From: Lachnospiraceae bacterium
GTDB lineage: Bacteria; Bacillota; Clostridia; Lachnospirales; Lachnospiraceae
Direction: 5' to 3'
Assembly (NCBI GenBank): GCA_016282595.1
Contig: JAEEKV010000154.1
Coordinates: 1 to 49,538, forward strand
DNA: 49,538 nucleotides
Shown here piece after piece: positions 1 to 17,347 of this stretch. The translations under genes were made by a program, and so were the position numbers. How positions within the stretch are numbered: the first letter of the stretch is position 1; each line of letters opens with the position of its first letter. A model generated the notes under the pieces. It was not told the origin of the DNA. It worked only from the letters and a program-made list of their open reading frames with translations, and did not search any database.

Positions 1-3000
1 GAGGGGCTTATGATGAAACTCCGCATCCAGGATACCCGCTGTTAACGTGTAATTGTTTGCTTCTATGGCCTGCACATCGGAAACCACATCCGTATTAAAG
101 TCATCGTTCCCCAGGGTGATGGAAAAGGTTCCTCCTCTTTGTATAAAGGTATCAGTTCTAAAACCACGGACCAGACTCGGGTGCTGGGAATCATCCTTTG
201 AGATGGCATCGGAGGTGATGTTGATCTCACCGGATTCTACCACCAGCTTCGTAACATCCATTCCGTAAATATATGCTCCCTTATTGGATACATAGGCTTT
301 CACATCCAATTTACCACTGCCCTTAATGGTATAGCCCCCCTGCTCAATGGTGGAATAGTAGGGATTTGTATAGCCGGGATCATAGGCAGTGACGTAGTTT
401 GGGTCTGCCTTGGAGCTTGCCGCGCCGATGAGGGAATTGTAGCCCTCTATATAAATGATGGCATTCTGGGTATATTCCTTGGAAAAGATGGCTGCCGTCA
501 GCTTTTTGTCCTCCTGAGAGGGATTGTATTTGCCGGATTCATAAGCCGTACCCTCTACAACGATATTACTTCTGTCGATGATAACACCGTTTAATGTAAT
601 CTTCGGAACAAAGCCCGTGGTTGCCCCATTACAAATCCGGTCATGAGAAACACTGACATCATCCCGCATGGAAATGGTGATGGGCTTTTCCGAGAGGATG
701 GTCAAAAGGCCTGAGCCGTCGATTTTCTGATCTTCAGCATCGTACTCCTCTGTGTAGGTGTAGTCTGAATCCTCACTTAAAATACCGCCGTCGGTCCTTG
801 ACAGGACAAAATCACCCACCTCATAGGAGATGTTTTCCAAAACCGTAGCCGAAATACTGAGACCGGCGGGACGATAGCTTTCGTCTCCTGCAAATTCCGC
901 GGTAAGGGTATAGCTTCCTACAGGAAGATCCGGGATGCTGATTGTTGTCTCGCCAAATGAATCCGTTTCAATGGTATAACTCTTTTCAGCAAAGGCAGGA
1001 TCCGCATTGGCCCGCAGGGTTACCGTTATCGTTTTGTCGGTTATCGCCAGGCCTGTTTTTGTCTTCAGGGAAAAAGATGCCTGCAGTTCTTCTCCGGATT
1101 TTACGGAAATATCTCTGCTTGCTGCGTCCAGCTTCGAGGACATCCTGCTGCCGCTTTGGAAGACGGCAGAGATCTGCGAATTTGCCGAAACAGCATCAAA
1201 ATCCGCATAGAAGTTTCCTTCCTCTGTTTCGATCCCATCCTTTTGTGTCTCGCCAAGGGAGATGGTGGTAACGGATTTTCCTTCTGCAGGATATACCCAG
1301 ACTCTCACCGGAGATCCGGAGACAAGAGACAGGCTGCCTATGGCAAAGGCGCCGTCAGAACTCTCTCCCGATGTTAGAGTTATCGTGTTGGTTGGGGCTC
1401 CCAAACTGCTTGCTGCAGATGTGGGAAGCCGGTAGCCCATATTGTCTTCATGAGGCTCATGAGAAGTCCCGTTAAAGTCCGTAGCGTTTTTCATAAAATT
1501 CGTAAAGACGGCCGTATCGCCTTGACAATCCCAGGTAGGATCGCAGTAGTAATAAGAGCCGTCTATGGATACAATGACCCAGCCGTGCATACCACCGTTT
1601 TCGCTGCCTACCGGAGTTCCCCAGCCTTCCACATAGCTGGCCGGGATGCCCTGTCTTTGCAGCAGAAGAATATAGGCCTTTGCGAAACCGTCGCAGACCG
1701 CTTTTTTCTCTAAAAAGGCACTGCCTGAGGACTGATCGATAAAGTTAGCATCGTAGCTGACCCAATTTGCCAAGGCCTGATAAAGTACATAGGCCTTCTG
1801 ATAGTCGGTCATGGAAGCGCAAACGCCGGAGGCCCTTTCCACCATGGTTACCGCCTCCTCAAAGGCCTCACTTCTGGATTGGAATTTGGAGGCATTGTAG
1901 CCGTTTTTCAGGATCAGGGTGGCACCCGTAGCGCCGGGTCCGATTCTGTCGATCCAAAGCCACCAATACTCAGGATGATCATATTGCAGGGCAGTGACGA
2001 TGGCCTGAGACTGGCCCATATCAAATCCGTAATTCATGCCGTAGGAAACCGATACACTGCTGCCTGCGCGAAATGCGTCAAGATCCGTTAGGGCCATATC
2101 GTATGCTGCCGCAAAGTCCTGACCATTTTCCTTTTGGGAAATTGCCTTCCTTGCGATCATGCCCTCCAAAAAGGCTGTTGCATCTGCAGTGTAAGCCACC
2201 TTATAAGGGTAAGTTGTTTGAGTTGCTGCGTCCTGATTGGCGGAAAGCTCCACCAGACGGGCTGCGCCCCGGTTTACGGTGCCGGCATAAACAGGATAGC
2301 CATAAACACTTCCGCTGCTGCCGTTGGCAAAGCAGCCCCCTACGATAGTTGCGTTGGTACAGGATATTTCTCTGCCATTAGAGGACTGTTTTGCAGCTTT
2401 GATACAGCCCCCTGCAATATACAGGTTGCGTTTGACATAGATTCCGTATTCTTGGCCGGCTACATCAAGACTTCCGTTTCCATCGATATCCAGGTTCATG
2501 GCACGGATACCCGCTAGGACATCATCCTTTGAGGGGGTGTAGCCGCTGTAAGTACTCTTTACATTGCTGCTTCCGGCACCCACCAGAGTATTCTCACCCT
2601 TCAAAGTAAGGTGCAGATTTCCCGCATACTCCACGCCGCTGTCATAGTGGACCTCAGTTCCCTGGAAATACACGGCATACATGGCGGCCCTTTGCTCGGG
2701 GTAGAGTCCCGTTACCAGATCGACACCCTGATAAAAGATGTTTTCCCCGGAGCGGTCGATGTGAACGCCGTCCAAAGTAATATGTCTGACCTCTTTTGTA
2801 TTGGTGGGAGAGGACACATAAATATAATCCTTGGTAACCGTCTTTCCATCCTTCATGGAGATGGTCACATTCTTATCGGTATTGATGATCAAAAAGCAGC
2901 CTTCGTCCTCAGAAGCCGCTCCGGAGAAGGTTACGTCTCCCTCCCGGCCCCCTTCTACGGTTGCCACCAGGTCGCAGTACTCTACGGAATACGTTGTCTG

Positions 3001-3144
3001 CTCACTAAGGGTCTCCGCTGCCAGGCTTTCCTTCTCGGCGTATGCGGGCTGCGCTGCCAATCCTGCCACCAATGCCATAGACAAAAGCAGCGTCATCCAT
3101 TTGCTGTTTCTTTTGCTTCTTTCTTTTTGGTTCTTCATAGTCAT
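1..3144 (-). CDS. Secreted transglutaminase-like (Cys-His-Asp core) domain protein. Only the N-terminal 1048 codons are present; the ORF runs off the left edge.
   Basis: Absent from the ORF track because there is no stop in the window. My own translation of the minus strand is open from ATG 3144 (GGAGG 5 nt upstream) to base 1. The N-terminus MTMKNQKERSKRNSKWMTLLLSMALVAGLAAQPAYA is a signal peptide. Around 1510-1700 the translation reads KKAVCDGFAKAYILLLQRQGIPASYVEGW..GGMHGWVIVSIDGSYYYCDPTWD, the transglutaminase-core triad pattern. NLDIDGNGSLDV near 2470-2500 is a Ca-binding-loop-like motif. Confidence 0.8.
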   Translation of the reverse strand, partial: MTMKNQKERSKRNSKWMTLLLSMALVAGLAAQPAYAEKESLAAETLSEQTTYSVEYCDLVATVEGGREGDVTFSGAASEDEGCFLIINTDKNVTISMKDGKTVTKDYIYVSSPTNTKEVRHITLDGVHIDRSGENIFYQGVDLVTGLYPEQRAAMYAVYFQGTEVHYDSGVEYAGNLHLTLKGENTLVGAGSSNVKSTYSGYTPSKDDVLAGIRAMNLDIDGNGSLDVAGQEYGIYVKRNLYIAGGCIKAAKQSSNGREISCTNATIVGGCFANGSSGSVYGYPVYAGTVNRGAARLVELSANQDAATQTTYPYKVAYTADATAFLEGMIARKAISQKENGQDFAAAYDMALTDLDAFRAGSSVSVSYGMNYGFDMGQSQAIVTALQYDHPEYWWLWIDRIGPGATGATLILKNGYNASKFQSRSEAFEEAVTMVERASGVCASMTDYQKAYVLYQALANWVSYDANFIDQSSGSAFLEKKAVCDGFAKAYILLLQRQGIPASYVEGWGTPVGSENGGMHGWVIVSIDGSYYYCDPTWDCQGDTAVFTNFMKNATDFNGTSHEPHEDNMGYRLPTSAASSLGAPTNTITLTSGESSDGAFAIGSLSLVSGSPVRVWVYPAEGKSVTTISLGETQKDGIETEEGNFYADFDAVSANSQISAVFQSGSRMSSKLDAASRDISVKSGEELQASFSLKTKTGLAITDKTITVTLRANADPAFAEKSYTIETDSFGETTISIPDLPVGSYTLTAEFAGDESYRPAGLSISATVLENISYEVGDFVLSRTDGGILSEDSDYTYTEEYDAEDQKIDGSGLLTILSEKPITISMRDDVSVSHDRICNGATTGFVPKITLNGVIIDRSNIVVEGTAYESGKYNPSQEDKKLTAAIFSKEYTQNAIIYIEGYNSLIGAASSKADPNYVTAYDPGYTNPYYSTIEQGGYTIKGSGKLDVKAYVSNKGAYIYGMDVTKLVVESGEINITSDAISKDDSQHPSLVRGFRTDTFIQRGGTFSITLGNDDFNTDVVSDVQAIEANNYTLTAGILDAEFHHKPL

Positions 3145-3211: not shown

Positions 3212-4414
3212 TTATCCCATTTCCCGCCCCTTATAATAGGCGTTGACAAGGGATCTGTATCCGAGGTCTTTCAACGTCTCGTATTTGACGTTGAATCTGG
3301 CCTTGGTATGTCTGCCGCTGAGCAGATACCGCAGGCAATCCTGGGCGTACAGGTCGATCTCGTGCAAGCTTTCAGTGGTATTGATCACCGGAAAAAACCA
3401 GTTACTCCAGGAAAGCTCGTTATCCCGGGGGCTCTCCAGAAGTTTTCTGTTGAAAACTCGGATAAAGGCCGCTGCCGCCTTTTCCCTTGAAATATCATTC
3501 CGTTTGCTCCAGCGCATAAGGGCATCCCGCTTTCGCTTCATTTTCTGCTTCAGCTTCTTTACCGTAGCAGGAGCGATATCGATCTTTTCCCTGCTGCAAT
3601 AAATTCCCAAGAAACTAAATCCCTCCCCGGGCTCATAAAAGCATTCCTTCTCCGGATTGATGGACAATCCATACCGATCCAGATGCCGGTGCAGGTATTC
3701 CGCATGCTCACGAACCTTTTTTTCAGAAGGCGCAAACAATATGATATCGTCGGAATATCTGGCGTACAAAACGCCCTGCTTTGTAAAGTGCTCATCCAGA
3801 TCCGCCAAAAACAGGTTGGCAAAAAAGGAGGATTGGGGCGTTCCCGCCATGATGCCCTTTTTCTCTCGCACAATCCCATTCCGGAAGGAAACCCGCTCCT
3901 CTGTCAAAAGCGACTTCAAAAAGGCATAGAGCTTCGGGTCGTCCGAGAGGGCTTCCTGCAGCATGGGCAAAAGCTCTGTAATAGGGATGGAATTAAAATA
4001 ATCGTGAATGTCTGCCTTGTAGGCATACAGACGGAACAGATCTTTTTCCTTTAAAAGGTACCTCACCGCATCCTTGGCGGTCCGGCCGGGTCTGAAAGAA
4101 AACAGGCCCTGCTGAAACAAGCCATCGTATCGCCTCAGCATCAGATAGGTCAAAAGCTTTAAAACCGTACTTTCCGCCTCCGGGTAGGTATAAACCACCC
4201 GCTTTTTCTCCGATCCCATCTTGCTGATCACGGCTTTTTCAGGTAACGCAAACTCCCCGCCCGATTGAATGGTTTCGCAAACGGGGAGGTACTTTTTTTC
4301 CTCAATAAAAAAACGAAGTTCCTTCGTAAACTGCTTCGGGCAAGCCAGGGAGCACTTATAGTCGTAGAACCTGCTCCAGGCAGCCCTGTCATCCAGTCGG
4401 TCCAGTAGAGACAT
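3212..4414 (-). CDS. Free-standing reverse transcriptase (RNA-directed DNA polymerase), 400 aa, catalytic motif YSDD
   Basis: RT motifs occur in order: FSFRPGRTAKDAV, YKADIHDYFNSIP, GIMAGTPQSSFFANLFLADLDEHF, YARYSDDIILF (YSDD = 3746-3757), LSINPEKE, GFSFLGIY. A helical tail of about 120 aa follows. GAGGA lies 7 nt upstream of ATG 4414. There is no endonuclease or other fused domain. Confidence 0.9.
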   Translation of the reverse strand: MSLLDRLDDRAAWSRFYDYKCSLACPKQFTKELRFFIEEKKYLPVCETIQSGGEFALPEKAVISKMGSEKKRVVYTYPEAESTVLKLLTYLMLRRYDGLFQQGLFSFRPGRTAKDAVRYLLKEKDLFRLYAYKADIHDYFNSIPITELLPMLQEALSDDPKLYAFLKSLLTEERVSFRNGIVREKKGIMAGTPQSSFFANLFLADLDEHFTKQGVLYARYSDDIILFAPSEKKVREHAEYLHRHLDRYGLSINPEKECFYEPGEGFSFLGIYCSREKIDIAPATVKKLKQKMKRKRDALMRWSKRNDISREKAAAAFIRVFNRKLLESPRDNELSWSNWFFPVINTTESLHEIDLYAQDCLRYLLSGRHTKARFNVKYETLKDLGYRSLVNAYYKGREMG

Positions 4415-4426
4415 TTTGTATCCTCA

Positions 4427-4572
4427 TAAGAAAGAAACAGAAGGAGAATCCGTTAAATCCCATAAATTATGGGATGTACCAGACCGTACACGAAGATGTT
4501 GCCTGCGAAACATATGATTCTTCGTGCCTGGCCCGCCGCAGGCGCAAATAGCGTTCTCCTTCTGTTTTCTTA
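4427..4572 (-). ncRNA. Candidate structured non-coding RNA (RT-associated template or guide RNA), closed by a 19-bp inverted repeat. Strand is assigned only by co-orientation with the RT.
   Basis: The arm 4554-4567 ttctccttctgttt is the perfect reverse complement of 4435-4448 aaacagaaggagaa. Pairing extends by 5 bp (4568-4572 with 4427-4431) across a 3-nt bulge. The 105-nt interior contains hairpins at 4526-4543, 4489-4526 (7+5 bp) and 4457-4475 (7 bp). The element ends 12 nt before the RT start codon. Confidence 0.5.
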
Positions 4573-4606
4573 CATCTTATTGTGTGCCGGATCCCCCGGC
4601 GAAAAA

Positions 4607-5098
4607 TTACCTGATGGCTTCTTTCATGCGACGAACGACATAGGAACGGGTATTCCACCATCCGTCATGATCATAGTAAAAGCGCAGGTATGGAACGTTT
4701 TCCTTCCACGCAGTATTACGGATCTTCTGGGCGCTGCTGCCTTCATTCATCAGCTCCAGCATCAGAACCTTGGTGCCTCCTGCATAAAAGGTATAAAAGG
4801 TGCGCTGCGTTCCGGCAATGTCTTCCCTATCATATCGGTATTCCGAAAACTCAGTGTCAAAAATGTTCTCAAAATACTGGATATAGGTTCCGCCGAAGTT
4901 GTACTGGTTTTCTTCCTCCGGCATCATCTCTCCCCAGGAATCCCCGGAAGCATAGGATTGCACCGGGTCAGAAGCATAAGAAGCAGCTTCCCGCTTGGCA
5001 GTTTGCTCCTTGGCATTGTCAATCAGACCATTCACCAGATCTCCTACTGCCTGCGAATCCACACCGAGTCCGTCGAGTAATTTGTTAAATAGTCCCAT
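4607..5098 (-). CDS. Hypothetical 163-aa cytosolic protein with no recognised family
   Basis: ORF with AGGGGG 6 nt upstream of the ATG, starting 10 nt after the stop of the upstream surface-protein gene. Amino-acid composition is normal. The N-terminus MGLFNKLLDGLG looks like an amphipathic helix, and the C-terminus is aromatic-rich (YLRFYYDHDGWWNTRSYVV). Confidence 0.65.
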   Translation of the reverse strand: MGLFNKLLDGLGVDSQAVGDLVNGLIDNAKEQTAKREAASYASDPVQSYASGDSWGEMMPEEENQYNFGGTYIQYFENIFDTEFSEYRYDREDIAGTQRTFYTFYAGGTKVLMLELMNEGSSAQKIRNTAWKENVPYLRFYYDHDGWWNTRSYVVRRMKEAIR

Positions 5099-5108
5099 AG
5101 CTTACCCC

Positions 5109-8100
5109 CTATTTTTTAAGTTTTTTATACTTGATCCCCTTCGGGGCGCCTCCTTTCTTGATGGCAGCCTTCAGGGTCTTCAGCTGTTTGGTGGTTGTAT
5201 TCTTCGGATAGTAAATAACCGCTTTCTTATAGATGTTACCAAAGGCCTTCTTGCCGACTTTCTTCTTGGTGAGCTTGGTGCTGTAAATATAAAGCTTTTT
5301 CAGCTTGCTGCAGCCGGAGAATGCATTTTTACCAACCTTACTTACTTTCTTACCGATGGTAAAGGATCCCAGCTTCTTGCAGCCCTGGAACGCACCATCT
5401 CCGATGGCGGTTACTTCGTCGCCCTTGATGGTAATGGTCTTAATATTATTGCAATCCTTGAAAGCGTTCTTTCCGATGGTTTTAACGCTCTCCGGAATGG
5501 TTACTGCGGTAACGGCTGCATTCTTTTCAAAGGCACTGTCTTCGATCTCGGTTACCTTTGCGTCCGCTCCGTTTGCCAGCTTCGTAGTCTCGGGAATATC
5601 CACCTTACCGGAAGCCTTCTCATCACCTGCATAAGCCAGGGTTGCTACTTCTTTTCCGGTCTCGTCCTTCTCAGTTCCGGTTACCACATAGGTAGCTCCT
5701 GTCTGGTCCTGGACCTCTGTTCCTGCCTTGGGAAGTTCAGCTGTCTGGGTTGTTCCGGGCTGGTCCTGTCCGCCCTGCTGGCCACCTTGCTGACCGGGTT
5801 CGGTGGTTGCAGGTTTTGATTCAAGCCTGGCAATCGTTTTCTTTTCCTGATAACCGCATACACTGCAGGTATAAGTCATCTCGCCTTCAGCGGCCTGTGT
5901 TGCCTCCTTAGTCACCTTTCCGTTATCAAAGGTATGCGCTGCCTTGTCCATCACAAAGCCGTCACCGGCGGTACAGAGATGCCAATGGCCGTCTGCATCA
6001 CTCAGCCACTTTGTGGTATCTGCTGTATGGGTATGGGCCGGCGTTGTGCCTGCCTTTGTCCATTTCGCATACAGGGTAAAGTCAGAATCAACCTTGGAAT
6101 CAAAATCATATGCATTTTTCTGATTCCATTTTTCAGTATACCATCCGTCAAAGGTAAAGCTTGCTCTGGTCGGATCTTCCGGCTTTTGTACCTTCTCTCC
6201 TGCGTTCACCGTCTGAGAAGGAACTGCGCTGCCGACTCCGGTATCGAAGGATACGGTATAGGAAAGGAACAACGGACCCGTTGCATCAGCACCGGTGCGG
6301 CCGATCGCAAGCTCTCTACCGCTTTCGCCATCCCAGGCACCTTTTGTGATAGCACAGTCCTTTAGTGTGATCTTAGAGACAGGTATCGTAGTGGCACCTG
6401 TTATGCCAAGGTTAGCGTCCTCTTTGCACCAGGCCTGCAGATTGGAATTTTCAATCGTCATTGTGGATCCGCTGCCGGCTCTGATCATATCTCTCGGATA
6501 GATCTTGCTGTTCTTGATCTTGATCGTTACATCCTTTTCTCCGCAATCAATACAAACCTGTCCACTATCATCGCCGATCTTACTTTGGGTAATGAACAAG
6601 TTGCTGTCGGTTCCGATCACGGTTTGCTCTATGGGATAATTCGGCCCCTGCCAGAATGTATCCCGGTTGATCAATGAATTTTCTATGCTCAGGCCTTTTG
6701 CTGCCTTGAGAGAGGTACCGTCTATCACCGCATTTTTGATCGTCAGAGTTTCAGGAAGATCCGCATACAGCTTCGTGATCGTGGCACCGTCTATCGCAAC
6801 ATCCCCAAGCACAGTGATTGGCAGGCTATATACGTCATTAAAAGGTACTCCTTCAATTTTATAATTTTCTGCCAGTACGGTTCGTTTCAGGCTTCCCTCA
6901 CCGCAGATCGTAAGATCTCCATATGCCCTGATGGCATCCTCAACGTAGTAATTGTTCCCATCTGCCCTAATCTCGTTCTCTCCCACCAGCACGATTTTCA
7001 GATCAGGAAGACAACTGATAATGGATGCCCTTTTATACTGCTCGTAATTATCCGGATCTTCAGAGATATGAATCTTAGCCGAATGCAATGCGGTATTGCC
7101 CGAAACTGATGCATGATCCAATGTCAGCGTATTGGTTTGAGGATCAAAGGTAGCTGTTCCCTCTCCACACTGAACTGACAGGTTATCATCGGAAATCACC
7201 TGATCCCCGACAGTAAGCGGATATCTGTGATCTGTAGGATCGGTATTAAACAGGTAAGCATAATCCGGGAAGTAATTCTTATAGTACTCTAACTGACCCT
7301 CCGGCACATTGATCGTAAGATCAATATCACATCCGATGAACTGAGATCCGCCTACTGCAAGACTATGAGAATAATGAATCCCGCTTCCTGTTGTATTCAA
7401 ATTGATTGTCTTTAATTTACTACAGTTCCTGAAGGTGTAGTAGCCGTTAACCGCGGTTCCCGTGAAGGTAACTTCCTCCAGCTGCGTGCAGTTTGCAAAA
7501 ACGCCTTCGGCGGAAATATAGTTGGGATTTTCATCCTTATATCCCGTTTTGATAGTTTTTACCTTTCCGGGAAGAGATGTATCTTCCGCCCTGGCCTTTG
7601 CCCACTTTTCAACGCCTTTGTTATTCAAAAGCCAAAGCGTACCATCGTCCGTCAGCTCCCACTCATTCTTTTCCAGATTTTCCTTTGTATCGCTTGCCCA
7701 CTTGGCATAGAGATTATGGATCATGCCTGTAGAATTCGTTGCAAAGAAATAATCATATACATCTTTTCCATTTTCTTTTGTTATAAAGCTGCCGTAAAGC
7801 GCACTTTTCTTATAGCACCAGCCAAGGAAGGTATCACCATCCTTTTTTGTGGGAATAACAGAGTTAAGATCAAAGGTGTAGGACGGATCATCTTTCGTTC
7901 CCACATTCTTTGCTTCCAGCATCCATTTATCGCGGCCATTTATCGATCCGCCATTGGTATGAAAGATCACAGTATGACCGTTGCCAAAGATCGGCTGCAT
8001 CGTTATATGTCCGGTTTTATTAACGGTCTGGTTGGAACAAACTCCCTCCGCATCCGCATCATAAACTACTGTCACATTTGTATAATTGGTCTCTTTCGAG

Positions 8101-8849
8101 CTATACCCAGAAGAGGTGCCATCCCACCCCTCGAACGTACTTTCTGTCTTAGTCGGATTCGGAATGCTGATCGTATAAGGCACATCAGTCAACCAGTAAT
8201 AACGCGGGAAATTCAGATTACTATATGTTCCCGCATCCCAATGATAAGAAGATAACTCATCATTGTTTGAACCTTCATAGTTAATCGCATAATATGGCTT
8301 ATAGTAAGATACATGTAATCCTACTGTCAGATACCATTCCCCCTGTTCGCCCATACTTCCGGAAAATCCAAGAGAAAGAAGCACCGGATAATCAGAGTTG
8401 TTGATATACTGCACCGGAACCTCATATTGGCTTCCGCCTGCTTTTGTGATCGATTCGCTGCCTTTTACACTAACACACTTTGTCGATGTTACATTAAAGC
8501 CAGTTCCAGCCGAATTCGAGGTACTGCCCTCAAAATCATAGGTATATGCATGTTCATCTGAAGCAGTTCCCCAATAACCAAGGGATAAGTAAGAATTTTT
8601 TCCATTTTCATTCTTAAACTCATATACCTTAAACTCAAAGGTATCCCCGGGCATAATTAGCTCACCTTCCGGATGATAACTGATATCTCCGTTTGAATCT
8701 TTTGTTGCCTCAAACACATGATGCTGCGACTTCCTGTTTTCCAGTACCGTCGGCTTCTCCACGTCCTCTGCAAACACCGCCATGGGCAGAAGTAAAGCAA
8801 ACACACATACCATCCATGACTGAAGTAAAAACCTTGAAATCCTTTTCAT
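5109..8849 (-). CDS. Large secreted surface protein with Listeria-Bacteroides (Flg_new-type) repeats and BspA-type leucine-rich repeats
   Basis: The start is trimmed to ATG 8849 (AAAGGGAGGAAGAAACAG-ATG), giving MKRISRFLLQSWMVCVFALLLPMAVFA as a signal peptide. Flg_new-type repeats include FEGWDG.., FLGWCY...LYAKW and FDGWYTEKW...FTLYAKW. LRR_5-like units include FANCTQLEEVTF, FRNCSKLKTINL, IGKNAFKDCNNIKTITI, IGDGAFQGCKKLGSFTI and VGKNAFSGCSKLKKLYI. There is no LPXTG motif; the C-terminal tail is basic. Confidence 0.85.
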   Translation of the reverse strand: MKRISRFLLQSWMVCVFALLLPMAVFAEDVEKPTVLENRKSQHHVFEATKDSNGDISYHPEGELIMPGDTFEFKVYEFKNENGKNSYLSLGYWGTASDEHAYTYDFEGSTSNSAGTGFNVTSTKCVSVKGSESITKAGGSQYEVPVQYINNSDYPVLLSLGFSGSMGEQGEWYLTVGLHVSYYKPYYAINYEGSNNDELSSYHWDAGTYSNLNFPRYYWLTDVPYTISIPNPTKTESTFEGWDGTSSGYSSKETNYTNVTVVYDADAEGVCSNQTVNKTGHITMQPIFGNGHTVIFHTNGGSINGRDKWMLEAKNVGTKDDPSYTFDLNSVIPTKKDGDTFLGWCYKKSALYGSFITKENGKDVYDYFFATNSTGMIHNLYAKWASDTKENLEKNEWELTDDGTLWLLNNKGVEKWAKARAEDTSLPGKVKTIKTGYKDENPNYISAEGVFANCTQLEEVTFTGTAVNGYYTFRNCSKLKTINLNTTGSGIHYSHSLAVGGSQFIGCDIDLTINVPEGQLEYYKNYFPDYAYLFNTDPTDHRYPLTVGDQVISDDNLSVQCGEGTATFDPQTNTLTLDHASVSGNTALHSAKIHISEDPDNYEQYKRASIISCLPDLKIVLVGENEIRADGNNYYVEDAIRAYGDLTICGEGSLKRTVLAENYKIEGVPFNDVYSLPITVLGDVAIDGATITKLYADLPETLTIKNAVIDGTSLKAAKGLSIENSLINRDTFWQGPNYPIEQTVIGTDSNLFITQSKIGDDSGQVCIDCGEKDVTIKIKNSKIYPRDMIRAGSGSTMTIENSNLQAWCKEDANLGITGATTIPVSKITLKDCAITKGAWDGESGRELAIGRTGADATGPLFLSYTVSFDTGVGSAVPSQTVNAGEKVQKPEDPTRASFTFDGWYTEKWNQKNAYDFDSKVDSDFTLYAKWTKAGTTPAHTHTADTTKWLSDADGHWHLCTAGDGFVMDKAAHTFDNGKVTKEATQAAEGEMTYTCSVCGYQEKKTIARLESKPATTEPGQQGGQQGGQDQPGTTQTAELPKAGTEVQDQTGATYVVTGTEKDETGKEVATLAYAGDEKASGKVDIPETTKLANGADAKVTEIEDSAFEKNAAVTAVTIPESVKTIGKNAFKDCNNIKTITIKGDEVTAIGDGAFQGCKKLGSFTIGKKVSKVGKNAFSGCSKLKKLYIYSTKLTKKKVGKKAFGNIYKKAVIYYPKNTTTKQLKTLKAAIKKGGAPKGIKYKKLKK

Positions 8850-9049
8850 CTGTTTCTTCCTCCCTTTACATATTACTGATTCCGTACGGCAAATCATTAT
8901 TGACTGAAACAATGGCCGCACCTGCTACAAGTATCTATATTCTACACAGTTTCGCTTCTATTTTCAATCAATTTGCTTAATCCGGGGGTTTCTTATGGGA
9001 ATATTAAGAATATCAAACGTTTAAGATACGTCGTAAGCAAAAGATGGGA

Positions 9050-9104: not shown

Positions 9105-10337
9105 TTACCAGAAGGTGTGGTTTCCGATGGTGATGCCGCTGCCGCCTCTTCCGAAGTGGGTAGCACCGCCTACGTTGCTCTGTCCTGCGATGGCTGCCTC
9201 CGCTGCCTGGATGCAGGATGCGCTGGGACCGGATGCCAGAACCGCTGCCACACGACCGTTGGTTGCGGGAGGGAACTGAGAAGGCTGGGTAATAACTCCG
9301 CTGATGCTGCCGGGATAGGATCCGCTGCGTACACGGTTCATAACTACCGCACCTACTGCAAGCTGTCCTTCGTAGCCCTCACGACCTGCTTCACACTGGA
9401 TCAGTGCTGCAAGAAGTGTTACATCGGAAGCACCTGTTTCAACCGCACCGCGGTTGGTGGTGGACTTGCCACCCTTCTTAGCCTTCTTGGCCTGCTCAGC
9501 TTTCTTAGCTTCTTCCTTGGCCTTTTCCTCAGCCATGATCTGCTCCATGGTCTTACCGGAAGGAACGGAAAACTCAACATCTACATATTCACTGGCTACA
9601 TAGCCGATTTCGCCGTCATACTTTACGGAAACCCACTCACCAAGCTCTTCTACTGCACGAAGCTCCTGTCCGTCTCCTACCAGGTCGATAACGCCTGCGT
9701 CCTCGCTGGTCTCCTTACGGATTCTCAGGGTCTCTGTATTAACAGTTGCGGTAAGGGTACCTGCTTCCTTGGAAGCTGCCTCAGCCTCCTCACCGAAGAA
9801 TAAGAACTCATCCTTGGTCCAGCCTTCAAGCTCGCCGCTCTTTAACTTGGTCCAGCCGTCTCTTCTCTCAAGGAGCTCACCGCCGCAGCCTGCAAACAGC
9901 TTACCTGCGATCTCAGCGTCCTCAGAAGGCTCTACTCTGACATTTACTGCATCTTCTACATTGGCCATTACAATGACGGGCTCCTCTTCGATCTGTGCCA
10001 GATCAGCGGGTACTTCCACGTCGGTAACGATCATCTCAAGGTCTGTGGTATCTTCCTGCAGCTCGGATACGATCACTTCTTCGGAATCCTCTACAGGCTC
10101 AGCTACTTCTTCGATCTCATTGATCTGTGCTTCCTGCATTACAGTGCTTACACCTGCACTTGCTTCGAAGTCATCATCCTTTATGCTGTTAACGGAAGAA
10201 CCCATGAGAATGCATCCAACTCCCGCATGCAGACCGATCTCATCGTCTGCAACCGCCGTGATAGGCAGTAAAGCAAGAGCAGCTATCAGCATCCATGCAA
10301 TCCCTGTTCTTTTAATCTTTGTCAGCATCATTTTCAT
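9105..10337 (-). CDS. Secreted cell-wall hydrolase (SleB/CwlJ Hydrolase_2 domain) with SH3b domains
   Basis: Signal peptide MKMMLTKIKRTGIAWMLIAALALLPITAVA, followed by an acidic linker. Two SH3_3-like segments are present (VNVRVEPSEDAEIAGKL..GWTKL; LRIRKETSEDAGVIDLV..EWVSV). The C-terminus LLAALIQCEAGREGYEGQLAVGAVVMNRVRSGSYPGSISGVITQPSQF is the SleB-type hydrolase signature. Confidence 0.85.
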   Translation of the reverse strand: MKMMLTKIKRTGIAWMLIAALALLPITAVADDEIGLHAGVGCILMGSSVNSIKDDDFEASAGVSTVMQEAQINEIEEVAEPVEDSEEVIVSELQEDTTDLEMIVTDVEVPADLAQIEEEPVIVMANVEDAVNVRVEPSEDAEIAGKLFAGCGGELLERRDGWTKLKSGELEGWTKDEFLFFGEEAEAASKEAGTLTATVNTETLRIRKETSEDAGVIDLVGDGQELRAVEELGEWVSVKYDGEIGYVASEYVDVEFSVPSGKTMEQIMAEEKAKEEAKKAEQAKKAKKGGKSTTNRGAVETGASDVTLLAALIQCEAGREGYEGQLAVGAVVMNRVRSGSYPGSISGVITQPSQFPPATNGRVAAVLASGPSASCIQAAEAAIAGQSNVGGATHFGRGGSGITIGNHTFW

Positions 10338-15980: not shown

Positions 15981-17174
15981 TCAGATTCCGGCAGCTGCCT
16001 TCAGTGCTTCTGCCTTGTCGGTCTTCTCCCAGGGAAGGTCAATATCCAATCTGCCGAAGTGACCGTAAGCTGCGGTCTGACGATAGATAGGTCTTCTTAA
16101 ATCCAGCATCTTAATGATGCCTGCGGGTCTGAAGTCAAACTCTGCACGCAGGATTTCAGCCAGCTTCTGATCGGATAAAACGCCGGTTCCGAAGGTATCC
16201 ACCATAACGGAGGTAGGCTGAGCCACACCGATGGCGTAGGATAACTGGATCTCGCACTTTTTCGCAAGTCCTGCAGCTACCACGTTCTTAGCAGCATATC
16301 TGGCTGCATAAGCTGCGCTTCGATCCACCTTGGTGCAATCCTTTCCGGAAAAAGCGCCGCCGCCGTGACGAGCGTAGCCGCCGTAGGTATCTACGATGAT
16401 CTTACGTCCGGTAAGACCTGCATCTCCGTGAGGTCCGCCGATGACGAAACGCCCGGTAGGATTGATGAAGAACTTGGTATCTGCATCGATCATTTCCTTG
16501 GGAAGTACGGGATCAAATACGTACTTTTTGATATCCTCATGAATCTGCTCCTGGGTTACATCCGGTGCATGCTGGGTGGAAAGTACCACTGCCTCTAAAC
16601 GGATGGGCTTGCCCTCCTCATCGTATTCTACGGAAACCTGGGTCTTGCCGTCGGGACGAAGGTAAGACAGGGTGCCGTTTTTTCTGACCTCGGAAAGCTT
16701 TAAGGAAAGCTTATGTGCCAGGGAAATGGGATAGGGCATCAGCTCCGGTGTTTCATCGGTGGCATAGCCGAACATCATACCCTGATCGCCTGCGCCGATG
16801 GCTTCCAGCTCCTCGTCACTCATCTTGTTCTCTTTGGCTTCCAGCGCCTTATCAACGCCCATGGCGATATCAGCAGACTGCTGATCCAGGGCTACCAGAA
16901 CGGCACTGCTGTTGGCATCAAAGCCCATATCGCCGCCTACATAGCCGATCTCGGTGATGGTCTTCTTTACGATGGCCGGAACGTCCAGTCTTGCTTTGGT
17001 GGTGATCTCGCCGGTTACCAGAGTAAATCCGGTACATACTGTGGTCTCGCAGGCCACACGGCTCATGGGATCCTCAGCGATGCAGGCATCGAGGATGGCA
17101 TCGGAAATGGCGTCGCAGACTTTGTCGGGATGCCCTTCGGTTACGGATTCGGAAGTGAATAATCTTTTTTCCAT
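15981..17174 (-). CDS. metK: S-adenosylmethionine synthetase
   Basis: [28 protein letters not shown] and GGGAFSGKD. Confidence 0.95.
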
Positions 17175-17193: not shown

Positions 17194-17347
17194 TAAAAAA
17201 GGTCCGCCATAAGCGGACCGAGTTACCATTGTGACTAAGTCCCCTTATTGTTCAACGCCGTAGCATTGCTCAGGTTGGCACCTTCCCTTGCGGGGGTTGC
17301 CGTGGCTTCACAGATCCTATGTATCTCCACCACTCTGAATAAGAGAA
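17194..17347 (-). promoter_or_regulatory. SAM-I (S-box) riboswitch with terminator expression platform, controlling metK
   Basis: The minus sense reads CTCTTATTCAGAGTGGTGGAGATACATAGGATCTGTGAAGCCACGGCAACC..GGTGCCAACCTGAGCAA..GAACAATAAGGGG, matching S-box conserved blocks and the P1 pairing. A terminator follows: GGTCCGC-TTATG-GCGGACC plus TTTTTT (17195-17219). Confidence 0.85.

What the first reader, a model, noticed from the sequence alone, without database searches (positions are those of the whole stretch)
3212..4606. Orphan reverse transcriptase (YSDD) with a dedicated upstream structured RNA: a candidate RT-based system that fits no canonical class
Seen in sequence: a 400-aa ORF carries the full set of RT palm and finger motifs and an uncommon catalytic tetrad, Y-S-D-D (3746-3757). 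A helical tail of about 120 aa follows, and no other domain is present. The RT sits alone, with only 190 nt of non-coding DNA upstream and 67 nt downstream. There are no cas genes, no integrase, no fused nuclease, protease or nitrilase, and no second RT. The upstream 190 nt is not a featureless spacer; it folds into an element closed by an inverted repeat (next finding).

Established knowledge: RT plus adjacent ncRNA is the minimal architecture of retrons and of single-gene defence RTs such as DRT2 (UG2) and DRT9 (UG28).

Inference: the RNA has a retron-like closing stem directly abutting the RT start. The protein, however, has FLG after motif 7, as in group II intron-like and unknown-group RTs, rather than the retron VTG motif. 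It may therefore represent an unclassified RT+ncRNA lineage. The gene is wedged between large surface-protein genes in what looks like an accessory island.
Basis: partly seen in the sequence, partly recalled or inferred. Interest (0 to 1): 0.85.

Follow-up and report, generated by a model that had tools for sequence, protein, structure and literature searches.

The report
UG26 reverse transcriptase, RT-5 RNA, partner
The "orphan" reverse transcriptase belongs to a catalogued but unstudied bacterial group (UG26) and always travels with a known structured RNA (Rfam RT-5) and a small partner protein, forming a three-part cassette that probably makes DNA from its own RNA, possibly for phage defence.

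Summary
The sequence facts hold. A 400-aa RT lies on the minus strand at 3212-4414, with YSDD at 3746-3757, a 192-nt structured upstream spacer and 67 nt downstream. The reading "orphan, alone, fits no class" does not hold.

- **RT:** it matches the PADLOC UG26 profile end to end (E 2.8e-175). UG26 is a Class 2 UG/Abi group.
- **RNA:** the spacer is Rfam RF03026, RT-5 RNA (88.5 bits against a cut-off of 45.7).
- **Partner:** the next gene upstream (4607-5098) matches the PADLOC profile RTasCOG2852 (E 1.5e-53).

In related loci the order partner gene, RNA, RT is nearly invariant. The RNA is present in 80 of 80 testable places. Of 120 metagenome contigs found through the RNA alone, 109 of 109 with room carry the RT and 115 of 117 carry the partner.

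The RNA is larger than the Rfam model. It has a 14-18 bp purine/pyrimidine closing stem, a 7-bp pseudoknot with compensatory changes, and two hairpins. 92.5% of cells are paired, against 36-48% in slid controls.

I found no published function for UG26. By analogy with DRT2, DRT9 and DRT10, the RT most likely copies a short part of this RNA into DNA, with the partner protein as effector. Defence is plausible but not shown. This is a new member of a catalogued but uncharacterised kind.

The parts
4607..5098 (-). Partner (accessory) gene, 163 aa. It has a short N-terminal helix (MGLFNKLLDG...), a variable low-complexity linker and a conserved C-terminal domain (aa ~55-163) with alpha-beta-beta-beta-alpha-beta-alpha topology.
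   Evidence: PADLOC RTasCOG2852, E 1.5e-53, residues 1-162 of the protein on positions 1-166 of the 167-position profile. No Pfam or NCBIfam hit. Present upstream of the RT in 77 of 77 testable genome loci. AF2 C-terminal domain has pLDDT above 90.
4429..4574 (-). Whole ncRNA as defined here: closing stem P0, pseudoknot, P1, P2 and a U-rich tail.
   Evidence: My covariance model R1 scores 145.3 bits, E 3.6e-35. Structure counts on 52 MAFFT-aligned homologues give 92.5% paired against 36-48% when slid, and 34 of 46 pairs change on both sides.
4445..4547 (-). Core that matches Rfam RF03026, RT-5 RNA.
   Evidence: 88.5 bits against a gathering score of 45.7, model positions 1-104 of 104, E 2.4e-16.
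4554..4571 (-). P0 5' arm, purine-rich (AAGAAAACAGAAGGAGAA), followed by conserved CGC (4551-4553).
   Evidence: 13 of the 14 P0 pairs show changes on both sides.
4431..4448 (-). P0 3' arm, pyrimidine-rich (UUCUCCUUCUGUUUCUUU), with a U-rich tail.
   Evidence: 69 of 80 homologous RNAs end with at least 4 U after P0.
4537..4543 (-). Pseudoknot 5' strand, GCCUGCG.
   Evidence: Pairs with 4501-4507. 100% of cells are paired. Compensatory changes occur in L070, L045, L067, L064/L069 and L035.
4501..4507 (-). Pseudoknot 3' strand, CGCAGGC, in the apical loop of P1.
4480..4535 (-). P1, a three-part hairpin (P1a/b/c/d) with a variable apical region.
   Evidence: Rfam consensus structure. 10 of 13 P1a-c pairs and 4 of 4 P1d pairs change on both sides.
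4476..4489 (-). GUAC-GGUCUG-GUAC, a direct 4-nt repeat with fixed 10-nt period flanking the 3' strand of P1a/b. It is a candidate template/alignment element only.
   Evidence: Exact GUAC-N6-GUAC in 59 of 77 homologues and GUA in 72 of 77. It is not the only conserved short repeat.
4457..4475 (-). P2 hairpin (AUCCCAUAAUUUAUGGGAU), followed by invariant UUUAA (4453-4457).
4421..4425 (-). GAGGA ribosome-binding site of the RT gene.
   Evidence: Read from the sequence, 6 nt upstream of the ATG at 4412-4414.
3212..4414 (-). UG26 reverse transcriptase gene, 400 aa.
   Evidence: PADLOC RT_UG26, E 2.8e-175, 1-397 on 1-396 of 398. Pfam RVT_1. AF2 pLDDT 91. Foldseek top hits are GsI-IIC group II RT (TM 0.72-0.77), G2L4 and DRT9 (TM 0.61-0.64).
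3746..3757 (-). Catalytic YSDD (aa 220-223).
   Evidence: Y220, S221, D222 and D223 are invariant in 26 homologues.
3233..3238 (-). Y393-Y394 near the C-terminus, a candidate protein-priming site (inference only).
   Evidence: At least one of the two is Tyr in 26 of 26 homologues, followed by a variable tail. DRT9 and DRT10 prime from C-terminal Tyr or Ser (PMC12483538, PMC12632851).

Best explanation
The locus is a three-part UG26 cassette on the minus strand: partner gene (4607-5098), RT-5-type ncRNA (4429-4574), then the RT gene (3212-4414). UG26 is a Class 2 group of UG/Abi reverse transcriptases.

Shown here: the three parts are members of catalogued families. They co-occur almost without exception in rumen and gut Clostridia. 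The RNA has a conserved, covariation-supported fold of closing stem, pseudoknot and two hairpins. The RT keeps an intact, invariant active site.

Inferred: the three parts are transcribed together, because the RNA starts 10-35 nt after the partner's stop codon and no conserved promoter lies between them. The closing stem plus U-tail would then release or attenuate the RNA ahead of the RT gene. The RT binds the RNA as scaffold and copies a short internal segment into DNA, as the characterised Class 2 relatives DRT2, DRT9 and DRT10 do. That synthesis is possibly protein-primed from the conserved C-terminal Tyr pair and possibly repetitive. The partner protein acts as effector or sensor of that DNA. 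The most probable biological role is anti-phage or abortive-infection immunity.
For: Identity: UG26 at 580.8 bits full length, against 104.9 bits for the next model. RT-5 at 88.5 bits against 45.7. RTasCOG2852 at E 1.5e-53. Linkage: the partner is present in 77 of 77 testable genome loci. The RNA is present in the window and in 79 of 82 loci, and the 3 misses are cut by contig ends. Rfam RT-5 scores above threshold in 19 of 20 loci. Reciprocal scan by RNA pattern alone: the RT is present in 109 of 109 contigs with room and the partner in 115 of 117. There is no third conserved gene. RNA structure. Active enzyme: YSDD and many palm and finger residues are invariant. Analogy: Class 2 UG RTs use adjacent ncRNAs as templates and prime from C-terminal Tyr or Ser (PMC12483538, PMC12632851, PMC9226505). 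UG26 keeps a Tyr at 393 or 394 in 26 of 26 homologues. Cassette behaviour: it is inserted at different chromosomal sites, two divergent copies occur in one MAG, and it sometimes sits next to tRNA genes.
Against: There are no experimental data for UG26. Mestre et al. found its defence association 'inconclusive' (PMC9226505). Seven contexts inspected here are mostly housekeeping genes, and only one has restriction-type genes nearby. The nearest sequence relative, UG27, is phage-borne and was predicted to be non-defensive. The template, primer and product are unknown. The GUAC-N6-GUAC element lies partly in a helix, and other conserved short repeats exist. The partner protein has no significant structural or profile match (Foldseek best E 0.039; hhalign against YcjD E 0.37). 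It also lacks the beta-2 Asp of Vsr/DUF559 nucleases, so its activity is unknown.
Confidence: 0.6

Rival explanations
1. Same three-part RT/RNA/partner machine, but not an immune system. It would serve a host or element function such as DNA repair or damage tolerance, an addiction or competition module, or regulation, as suggested for the related phage-borne UG27 and plasmid-borne UG4.
For: Neighbourhoods are mostly housekeeping, with no defence-island signal. Mestre et al. call defence 'inconclusive' for UG26 and 'non-defence' for UG27 and UG4 (PMC9226505). The system is widespread, in 364 species-level genomes, within one ecological group.
Against: Every experimentally characterised UG/Abi system named in the papers read here confers phage defence. 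The cassette sits at different sites in different genomes. Paralogous divergent copies occur in one genome. The system is absent from phage and plasmid collections.
Confidence: 0.2
2. The RNA is only a cis-acting leader or attenuator that controls RT expression, for example by RT autoregulation through the closing stem and U-tract. It would not be a template.
For: The closing stem is followed by a U-run in 69 of 80 RNAs. In the window it ends 5 nt before the RT ribosome-binding site. The RNA lies in the 5' UTR of the RT in most loci.
Against: The distance from the RNA to the RT start varies widely. In L079 it is 575 nt, and in L038 the RNA and partner are on the opposite strand from the RT. 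The RNA carries about 40 invariant unpaired or pseudoknotted bases, far more than an attenuator needs. Known Class 2 ncRNAs are scaffolds and templates.
Confidence: 0.1
3. Retron-like mechanism. The closing stem acts as a1/a2, a conserved G next to it (in the CGC at 4551-4553) provides a 2'-OH primer, and the RT makes a branched msDNA.
For: A long closing inverted repeat lies directly upstream of the RT, with conserved CGC after the 5' arm. Weinberg et al. speculated that many RT motifs act in retrons (PMC5737381).
Against: The RT is not a retron RT. Retron_St85 scores 57.6 bits against a cut-off of 235, and the motif is FLG rather than VTG. It belongs to UG/Abi Class 2, whose studied members DRT9 and DRT10 prime from protein (PMC12483538, PMC12632851). 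The RNA core is a conserved pseudoknot, not a variable msd stem-loop.
Confidence: 0.07
4. Degenerate group II intron or group II-like (G2L) RT with a leftover piece of intron RNA.
For: The best structural matches are group II intron RTs (GsI-IIC, TM 0.72-0.77) and G2L4. Some database records name homologues 'group II intron reverse transcriptase domain-containing protein'.
Against: TIGR04416 scores 98.9 bits against a cut-off of 300. No group II intron RNA was found by Rfam in the window or in 20 loci. The UG26 profile scores 580 bits. The RNA lies on one side only and is about 150 nt long.
Confidence: 0.02

Closest known systems
UG26 (Class 2 UG/Abi reverse transcriptases; Mestre et al. 2022, PMC9226505; PADLOC model RT_UG26)
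   Same: The RT matches the profile over its full length. It has an RT domain with no other known domain. It is associated with the 'cluster 1531 / COG2852' small protein.
   Different: Nothing differs at the level of membership. The published description had 35 members, reported the partner in only 9 of 35, reported no ncRNA and left the defence call inconclusive. Here the partner and an RNA are almost universal in the clade sampled.
Rfam RF03026, RT-5 RNA (Weinberg et al. 2017, PMC5737381)
   Same: Full-model match well above the gathering score, lying next to an RT gene.
   Different: The functional unit seen here is larger than the 104-position model. It adds a covarying 14-18 bp closing stem with an A-run and a U-run. 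It also has a 7-bp pseudoknot that the model's structure line does not carry. The papers I could search do not link RT-5 to UG26.
[quoted passage not shown]
   Same: Class 2 UG RT of similar size. Tripartite layout of small partner protein, ncRNA and RT. Conserved hydroxyl residue at the RT C-terminus. A short A-B-A'-like direct repeat in the RNA.
   Different: Different RT group (UG17 model only 97.8 bits). The partner is not SLATT and has no transmembrane prediction. The RNA is unrelated in sequence. The candidate template is partly base-paired. No product is known.
DRT9 (UG28): RT + upstream ncRNA, poly-dA synthesis primed by C-terminal tyrosines (PMC12483538)
   Same: The ncRNA lies upstream of a Class 2 RT. 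There is a pair of conserved C-terminal tyrosines. It is the closest solved UG structure (TM 0.61-0.64).
   Different: The Drt9 model scores only 89 bits. There is no internal poly-U template loop. UG26 is about 100 aa shorter. UG26 has a near-obligate partner protein.
UG27 (phage-borne Class 2 RT with a three-stem-loop ncRNA; PMC9226505)
   Same: Second-best profile (104.9 bits). The RNA lies between a small associated gene and the RT.
   Different: UG27 occurs in gut phages. UG26 relatives were not found in IMG/VR, INPHARED or PLSDB.
Retrons
   Same: RT preceded by a structured RNA closed by a long inverted repeat, often with an accessory effector gene.
   Different: The RT lies outside the retron clade, it lacks VTG, and the RNA core is a conserved pseudoknot.

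Membership tests
UG26 (Class 2 UG/Abi RT) | Full-length match to the group's RT profile, clearly better than to any other RT group | tested here: met
   PADLOC RT_UG26, E 2.8e-175, 580.8 bits, 1-397 on 1-396 of 398. The next model, UG27, scores 104.9 bits.
UG26 (Class 2 UG/Abi RT) | RT domain only, with no fused known domain (the Class 2 criterion) | tested here: met
   Pfam finds only RVT_1. The AF2 model is a compact fingers-palm-thumb fold with a helical C-terminus.
UG26 (Class 2 UG/Abi RT) | Co-location with the cluster 1531 / 'COG2852' small protein | tested here: met
   The 163-aa gene at 4607-5098 matches PADLOC RTasCOG2852 at E 1.5e-53. It is conserved in 77 of 77 testable loci.
UG26 (Class 2 UG/Abi RT) | Placement inside the UG26 clade in a curated RT phylogeny | not tested
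   No curated reference tree was available. Profile scores were used as a proxy.
Rfam RF03026 RT-5 RNA | Covariance-model score at or above the gathering threshold over the whole model | tested here: met
   88.5 bits against 45.7, positions 1-104 of 104. Also met in 19 of 20 related loci.
Rfam RF03026 RT-5 RNA | Located next to a reverse transcriptase gene | tested here: met
   30 nt upstream of the RT start codon. The RT lies downstream in 109 of 109 RNA-anchored contigs.
Defence-associated RT (DRT) systems | Experimentally shown protection against phage that depends on the RT active site | not testable with these tools
   No experiment on UG26 was found in the literature searches.
Defence-associated RT (DRT) systems | Enrichment next to known defence genes | tested here: inconclusive
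   Seven neighbourhoods are mostly housekeeping genes. One has an Eco57I-type methylase and a ResIII gene 3-7 kb away. No recurrent third gene was found.
Class 2 UG mechanism (ncRNA-templated DNA synthesis) | RT-dependent cDNA that maps to the ncRNA | not testable with these tools
   This needs cDNA sequencing. Only candidate elements were found.
Retron | RT of the retron clade (profile match above cut-off, VTG motif after motif 7) | tested here: not met
   NF038233 scores 57.6 bits against 235. The motif at aa 268-270 is FLG.
Retron | msr/msd RNA closed by a1/a2 inverted repeats with a branching G | tested here: inconclusive
   A closing stem exists and covaries. A branching G cannot be shown by computation.
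Group II intron / maturase | Maturase profile above cut-off, with intron RNA domains on both sides of the ORF | tested here: not met
   TIGR04416 scores 98.9 bits against 300. No intron RNA was found by Rfam.
Vsr / DUF559 (COG2852) PD-(D/E)XK nucleases (partner protein) | Significant profile or structural match and the catalytic acidic residues | tested here: not met
   No Pfam hit in 38 members. hhalign against E. coli YcjD gives E 0.37. Foldseek best E is 0.039. Only the strand order and the VVELM and PYLRFY register resemble DUF559, and the beta-2 Asp is absent.

The most novel reading that the evidence does not exclude
UG26 is a fourth mechanistic type of Class 2 RT system. The RT, primed by its own C-terminal tyrosine, would repeatedly copy a roughly 10-nt segment bounded by the two invariant GUAC motifs, or the GCAG-GCAG pseudoknot loop. 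It would use the pseudoknot as a template-boundary element, as telomerase does. The resulting tandem-repeat DNA would be read by the partner protein, a new nuclease-like fold carrying interchangeable N-terminal modules (a short N-terminal helix or a zinc ribbon), to stop infected cells.
Probability: 0.12. Interest if true: 0.8.

Novelty: new member of a known kind. Interest (0 to 1): 0.5.

Why it matters
Each Class 2 UG reverse transcriptase studied so far has shown a new way of making DNA. DRT2 assembles a gene, DRT9 makes poly-dA and DRT10 makes telomerase-like repeats. UG26 is still a blank. This locus and its relatives give a compact, well-defined test object of about 2.1 kb. The RNA now has mapped boundaries, a supported pseudoknot and closing stem, and a near-obligate partner protein.

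The link between Rfam RT-5 and UG26, and the near-universal partner, do not appear in the papers I could search. They would help anyone annotating or testing these systems in rumen and gut Clostridia. For the genome scan, the lesson is that the finding is real, but it is catalogued rather than unclassified.

Tried and rejected
- **Group II intron or maturase:** rejected. The profile score is below cut-off and no intron RNA was found.
- **Retron:** rejected as membership.
- **Phage or plasmid origin:** no relatives in IMG/VR. The best INPHARED hit is 22-33% identical and the best PLSDB hit 24-27%.
- **Partner as a Vsr/DUF559 nuclease:** Pfam, the PDB sequence profile, Foldseek and hhalign against YcjD were all non-significant. 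An all-library HMMER profile search gave only 220 representatives, all of the same family.
- **Own promoter for the RNA:** the consensus scan and a positional -10 count over 78 loci found nothing conserved.
- **Third conserved gene:** none. The only other recurrent ORF is an antisense shadow of the partner gene.
- **Unique A-B-A' template signature:** GUAC-N6-GUAC is conserved, but so are GCAG-GCAG and UGCG-N2-UGCG. A 4-nt repeat is also expected by chance in a 146-nt RNA, so this stays a weak lead.
- **N-terminal amphipathic helix as a membrane anchor:** the hydrophobic moment is modest, 0.50 in the window protein and 0.23 in the consensus. No claim is made.
- **Literature:** searches for UG26, RT-5 and DRT11-14 found no functional study of this group.
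Full report
**1. Observation**

The ORF is real and lies on the minus strand at 3212-4414. It encodes 400 aa. YSDD is aa 220-223, window 3746-3757, and FLG is at aa 268-270. Pfam sees only RVT_1.

The upstream spacer is 192 nt (4415-4606). The downstream spacer is 67 nt and ends at a large transglutaminase/Ig-like surface-protein gene. The spacer folds at -69.6 kcal/mol, z = -5.2 against shuffles. It is closed by an 18-nt inverted repeat.

The claim that the RT "sits alone" is wrong. The gene directly upstream on the same strand (4607-5098, 163 aa) is a specific partner, as shown below.

**2. What the parts are**

- **RT.** It matches the PADLOC profile RT_UG26 from end to end (E 2.8e-175, 580.8 bits). 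The next-best profiles are UG27 (104.9 bits), UG4, UG17 and Drt9 (89 bits). NCBIfam profiles for group II maturase, retron and Drt2-5 are all far below their cut-offs. UG26 is one of nine Class 2 groups of UG/Abi RTs in Mestre et al. 2022. That paper had 35 members, found 9 of them next to a "COG2852/YcjD-like" protein (cluster 1531), reported no ncRNA and called defence "inconclusive" (PMC9226505).
- **Partner gene.** The 163-aa gene matches the PADLOC profile for that cluster, RTasCOG2852 (E 1.5e-53, full length).
- **RNA.** The spacer contains a full-length match to Rfam RF03026, RT-5 RNA (88.5 bits, gathering score 45.7). RT-5 is one of the RT-1 to RT-19 motifs that Weinberg et al. 2017 found next to RT genes. 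They left the function open (PMC5737381).

I found no paper that links RT-5 to UG26 or that studies UG26 experimentally.

**3. Do the parts travel together?**

A genome scan found relatives of the RT in 364 species-level genomes. The best 80 loci are all from rumen or gut Clostridia: Lachnospiraceae, Ruminococcus and Oscillospiraceae.

- The partner gene is present in 77 of the 80 loci. The three exceptions have fewer than 180 nt of contig upstream of the RT.
- A covariance model built from 52 aligned spacers finds the RNA in the window and in 79 of 82 loci. The same three truncated loci are the misses.
- Rfam's own model scores above threshold in 19 of 20 loci tested. The 20th has masked bases in the RNA.
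- I also ran the reverse test. The RT lies downstream in 109 of 109 contigs with room. The partner lies upstream in 115 of 117.
- One clear exception, L175, has an unrelated gene in the partner's place.
- No third gene recurs.

The unit is therefore partner gene, RNA, RT, about 2.1 kb in total. In the rare rearranged loci the RNA stays next to the partner gene. In L038 the partner and RNA are convergent with the RT, and in L079 a 575-nt gap separates the RNA from the RT.

**4. The RNA**

The alignment of 52 homologues was made with MAFFT and was not fitted to any structure. It shows this layout:

- an A-run, then a purine-rich arm (consensus GCAGAAAGAGAA) and conserved CGC;
- GCGCCUGCGG, the 5' strand of the pseudoknot;
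- P1, a three-part hairpin whose apical loop reads UUCGCAGGCAG;
- GUAC, six bases, then GUAC;
- P2;
- invariant UUUAA;
- a pyrimidine-rich arm (UUCUCUUUCUGC) and a U-run.

Counting pairs for this structure gives 92.5% of cells paired, against 36-48% when partners are slid by 1-3 columns. Changes on both sides occur in 34 of 46 pairs. No shuffle out of 500 reaches the observed values.

The closing stem lies outside the Rfam model. It varies on both sides in 13 of 14 pairs.

The 7-bp pseudoknot (GCCUGCG with CGCAGGC) is paired in every sequence. It shows independent compensatory changes at three positions:

- C-G to G-C in L070.
- U-A to C-G in L045, L067 and L064/L069.
- C-G to U-A in L035.
- Wobble intermediates in several other loci.

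The RNA starts 10-35 nt after the partner's stop codon, and no conserved promoter lies between them. Co-transcription is therefore likely. The closing stem is followed by at least four U in 69 of 80 RNAs, which looks like a terminator or attenuator ahead of the RT gene.

**5. The proteins**

*RT.* The AlphaFold2 model has pLDDT 91. Its closest solved structures are group II intron RTs (GsI-IIC, TM 0.72-0.77), then G2L4, then DRT9 (TM 0.61-0.64). YSDD is invariant in 26 homologues. Near the C-terminus the motif AYY (Y393, Y394) keeps at least one Tyr in 26 of 26 sequences and is followed by a variable tail. DRT9 primes DNA synthesis from two C-terminal tyrosines. DRT10 primes from a C-terminal Ser or Tyr. 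The resemblance is a lead, not a test.

*Partner protein.* The family is small and closed. A word-indexed search found 312 proteins, and HMMER found only 220 representatives among 1.84 billion. None has a Pfam domain. The C-terminal domain is predicted with pLDDT above 90 and has alpha-beta-beta-beta-alpha-beta-alpha topology. Nothing significant comes from Foldseek (best E 0.039, a restriction enzyme), from a PDB sequence profile, or from hhalign against E. coli YcjD (E 0.37).

The non-significant YcjD alignment is in the register expected for DUF559: VVELM aligns with VVELDG, and PYLRFY with TVLRFW. The acidic residue on beta-2 and the DG..H motif are missing. "Nuclease-like, probably not a canonical nuclease" is therefore the most that can be said.

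The domain also occurs in other arrangements. It is found duplicated in tandem, and behind zinc ribbons with very long linkers. This suggests that the C-terminal domain is the working part and the N-terminal module is exchangeable.

**6. Context**

The window is ordinary chromosome: DnaE, phosphofructokinase, MetK with its SAM riboswitch, and MurA. The cassette sits between two large surface-protein genes.

In six other genomes the cassette sits between unrelated housekeeping genes. Only one has restriction-type genes within 7 kb. About 9 of 60 loci have a tRNA gene within 300 nt of the cassette. One MAG carries two divergent copies. No relatives were found in viral or plasmid collections.

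The picture is of a small, independently inserted cassette. It gives no statistical evidence for or against defence.

**7. How it most likely works**

*Shown:* an intact polymerase, a dedicated and elaborately folded RNA, a dedicated partner protein, and their tight linkage.

*Inferred from the studied Class 2 relatives* (PMC12483538, PMC12632851, PMC9226505): the RT binds the RNA and copies a short internal segment into DNA. That synthesis is probably primed by the protein itself and may be repetitive. The partner acts on or senses the product. The outcome is abortive infection.

Candidate template elements:

- GUAC-N6-GUAC is exact in 59 of 77 RNAs with a fixed period of 10. Its middle six bases form the 3' strand of a covarying helix.
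- GCAG-GCAG lies in the pseudoknot loop.

Short repeats of this kind are expected by chance in a 146-nt RNA. I rate any specific template at about 0.1-0.2.

I put the overall model at 0.6. Identity of the three parts stands at about 0.95. Defence as the biological role stands at about 0.5.

**8. Rivals**

- The same machine with a non-defence role: 0.2.
- The RNA as a leader or attenuator only: 0.1. This is contradicted by the variable distance and orientation relative to the RT, and by the many invariant unpaired bases.
- Retron-like branched msDNA: 0.07.
- A group II intron remnant: 0.02.

**9. Novelty and verdict**

All three parts are already in public model libraries, so the locus is a new member of a known but uncharacterised kind. 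It is not an unclassified lineage.

Three things appear to be new relative to the papers I could search:

- the identification of RT-5 as the UG26 RNA;
- its extension by a closing stem and a pseudoknot;
- the near-universal presence of the partner, against 9 of 35 in the original survey.

Interest is moderate (0.5).

Noticed in passing
window 17242-17345 (-): SAM riboswitch (RF00162, 76.2 bits) directly upstream of the S-adenosylmethionine synthetase gene at 15981-17174 (-). This is an ordinary, known arrangement.
   Followed up: partly
window 4469-5080 (+): A 203-aa ORF antisense to the partner gene. The same shadow ORF recurs in 18 related loci, so it is a by-product of the conserved gene on the other strand and not a gene.
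   Followed up: yes
L038 6001-8441: Rearranged cassette. The partner gene and the RNA lie downstream of the RT on the opposite strand (convergent), and the RT has a foreign terminator upstream. The RNA stays with the partner gene, not with the RT. This could be a real inversion or a MAG assembly error.
   Followed up: partly
L175 6043-7769; L128: Two RNA+RT loci with no detectable partner gene. In L175 an MGMT-like 102-aa gene sits in its place.
   Followed up: partly
L008 and L067 (both from MAG RGIG5989): Two divergent copies of the whole cassette in one genome bin. They are 67% and 58% identical to the window RT.
   Followed up: no
L026, L028, L062, L046, L053, L031, L036, L042, L043: A tRNA gene lies within about 300 nt of the cassette in roughly 9 of 60 loci, with different tRNAs in different genomes. 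No integrase was seen.
   Followed up: partly
P0241, P0244 (about 380-430 aa); P0361 (854 aa), P0325, P0344, P0352: The partner's C-terminal domain also occurs duplicated in tandem. It also occurs behind an N-terminal zinc ribbon with very long P/Q/E-rich repeats, and once with a weak bacterial PH-domain hit. Whether these variants also sit next to UG26 RTs was not checked.
   Followed up: partly
L003, L004, L083, L021, L042, L043, L076 (RNA P1 apical region): The apical part of P1 tolerates insertions of up to about 60 nt, while the pseudoknot loop sequence stays fixed.
   Followed up: no
window 4586-4600 (-): A small GC hairpin (GCCGGGGGAUCCGGC) lies between the partner's stop codon and the RNA. 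It is preceded, not followed, by a U-run. Its role is unknown.
   Followed up: no
window 1-3144 (-) and 5109-8921 (-): The cassette is flanked by two very large secreted or surface proteins. One has a transglutaminase core and an Ig-like domain. The other has BspA-type LRR and Listeria-Bacteroides repeats. A cell-wall hydrolase gene lies at 9105-10337.
   Followed up: partly
L061, L063, L074, L080 (upstream of the RNA): In this subclade the 5' arm of the closing stem is preceded by a GC hairpin plus a U-run, which looks like a terminator, instead of the usual A-run. The RNA may have its own promoter in these loci.
   Followed up: no
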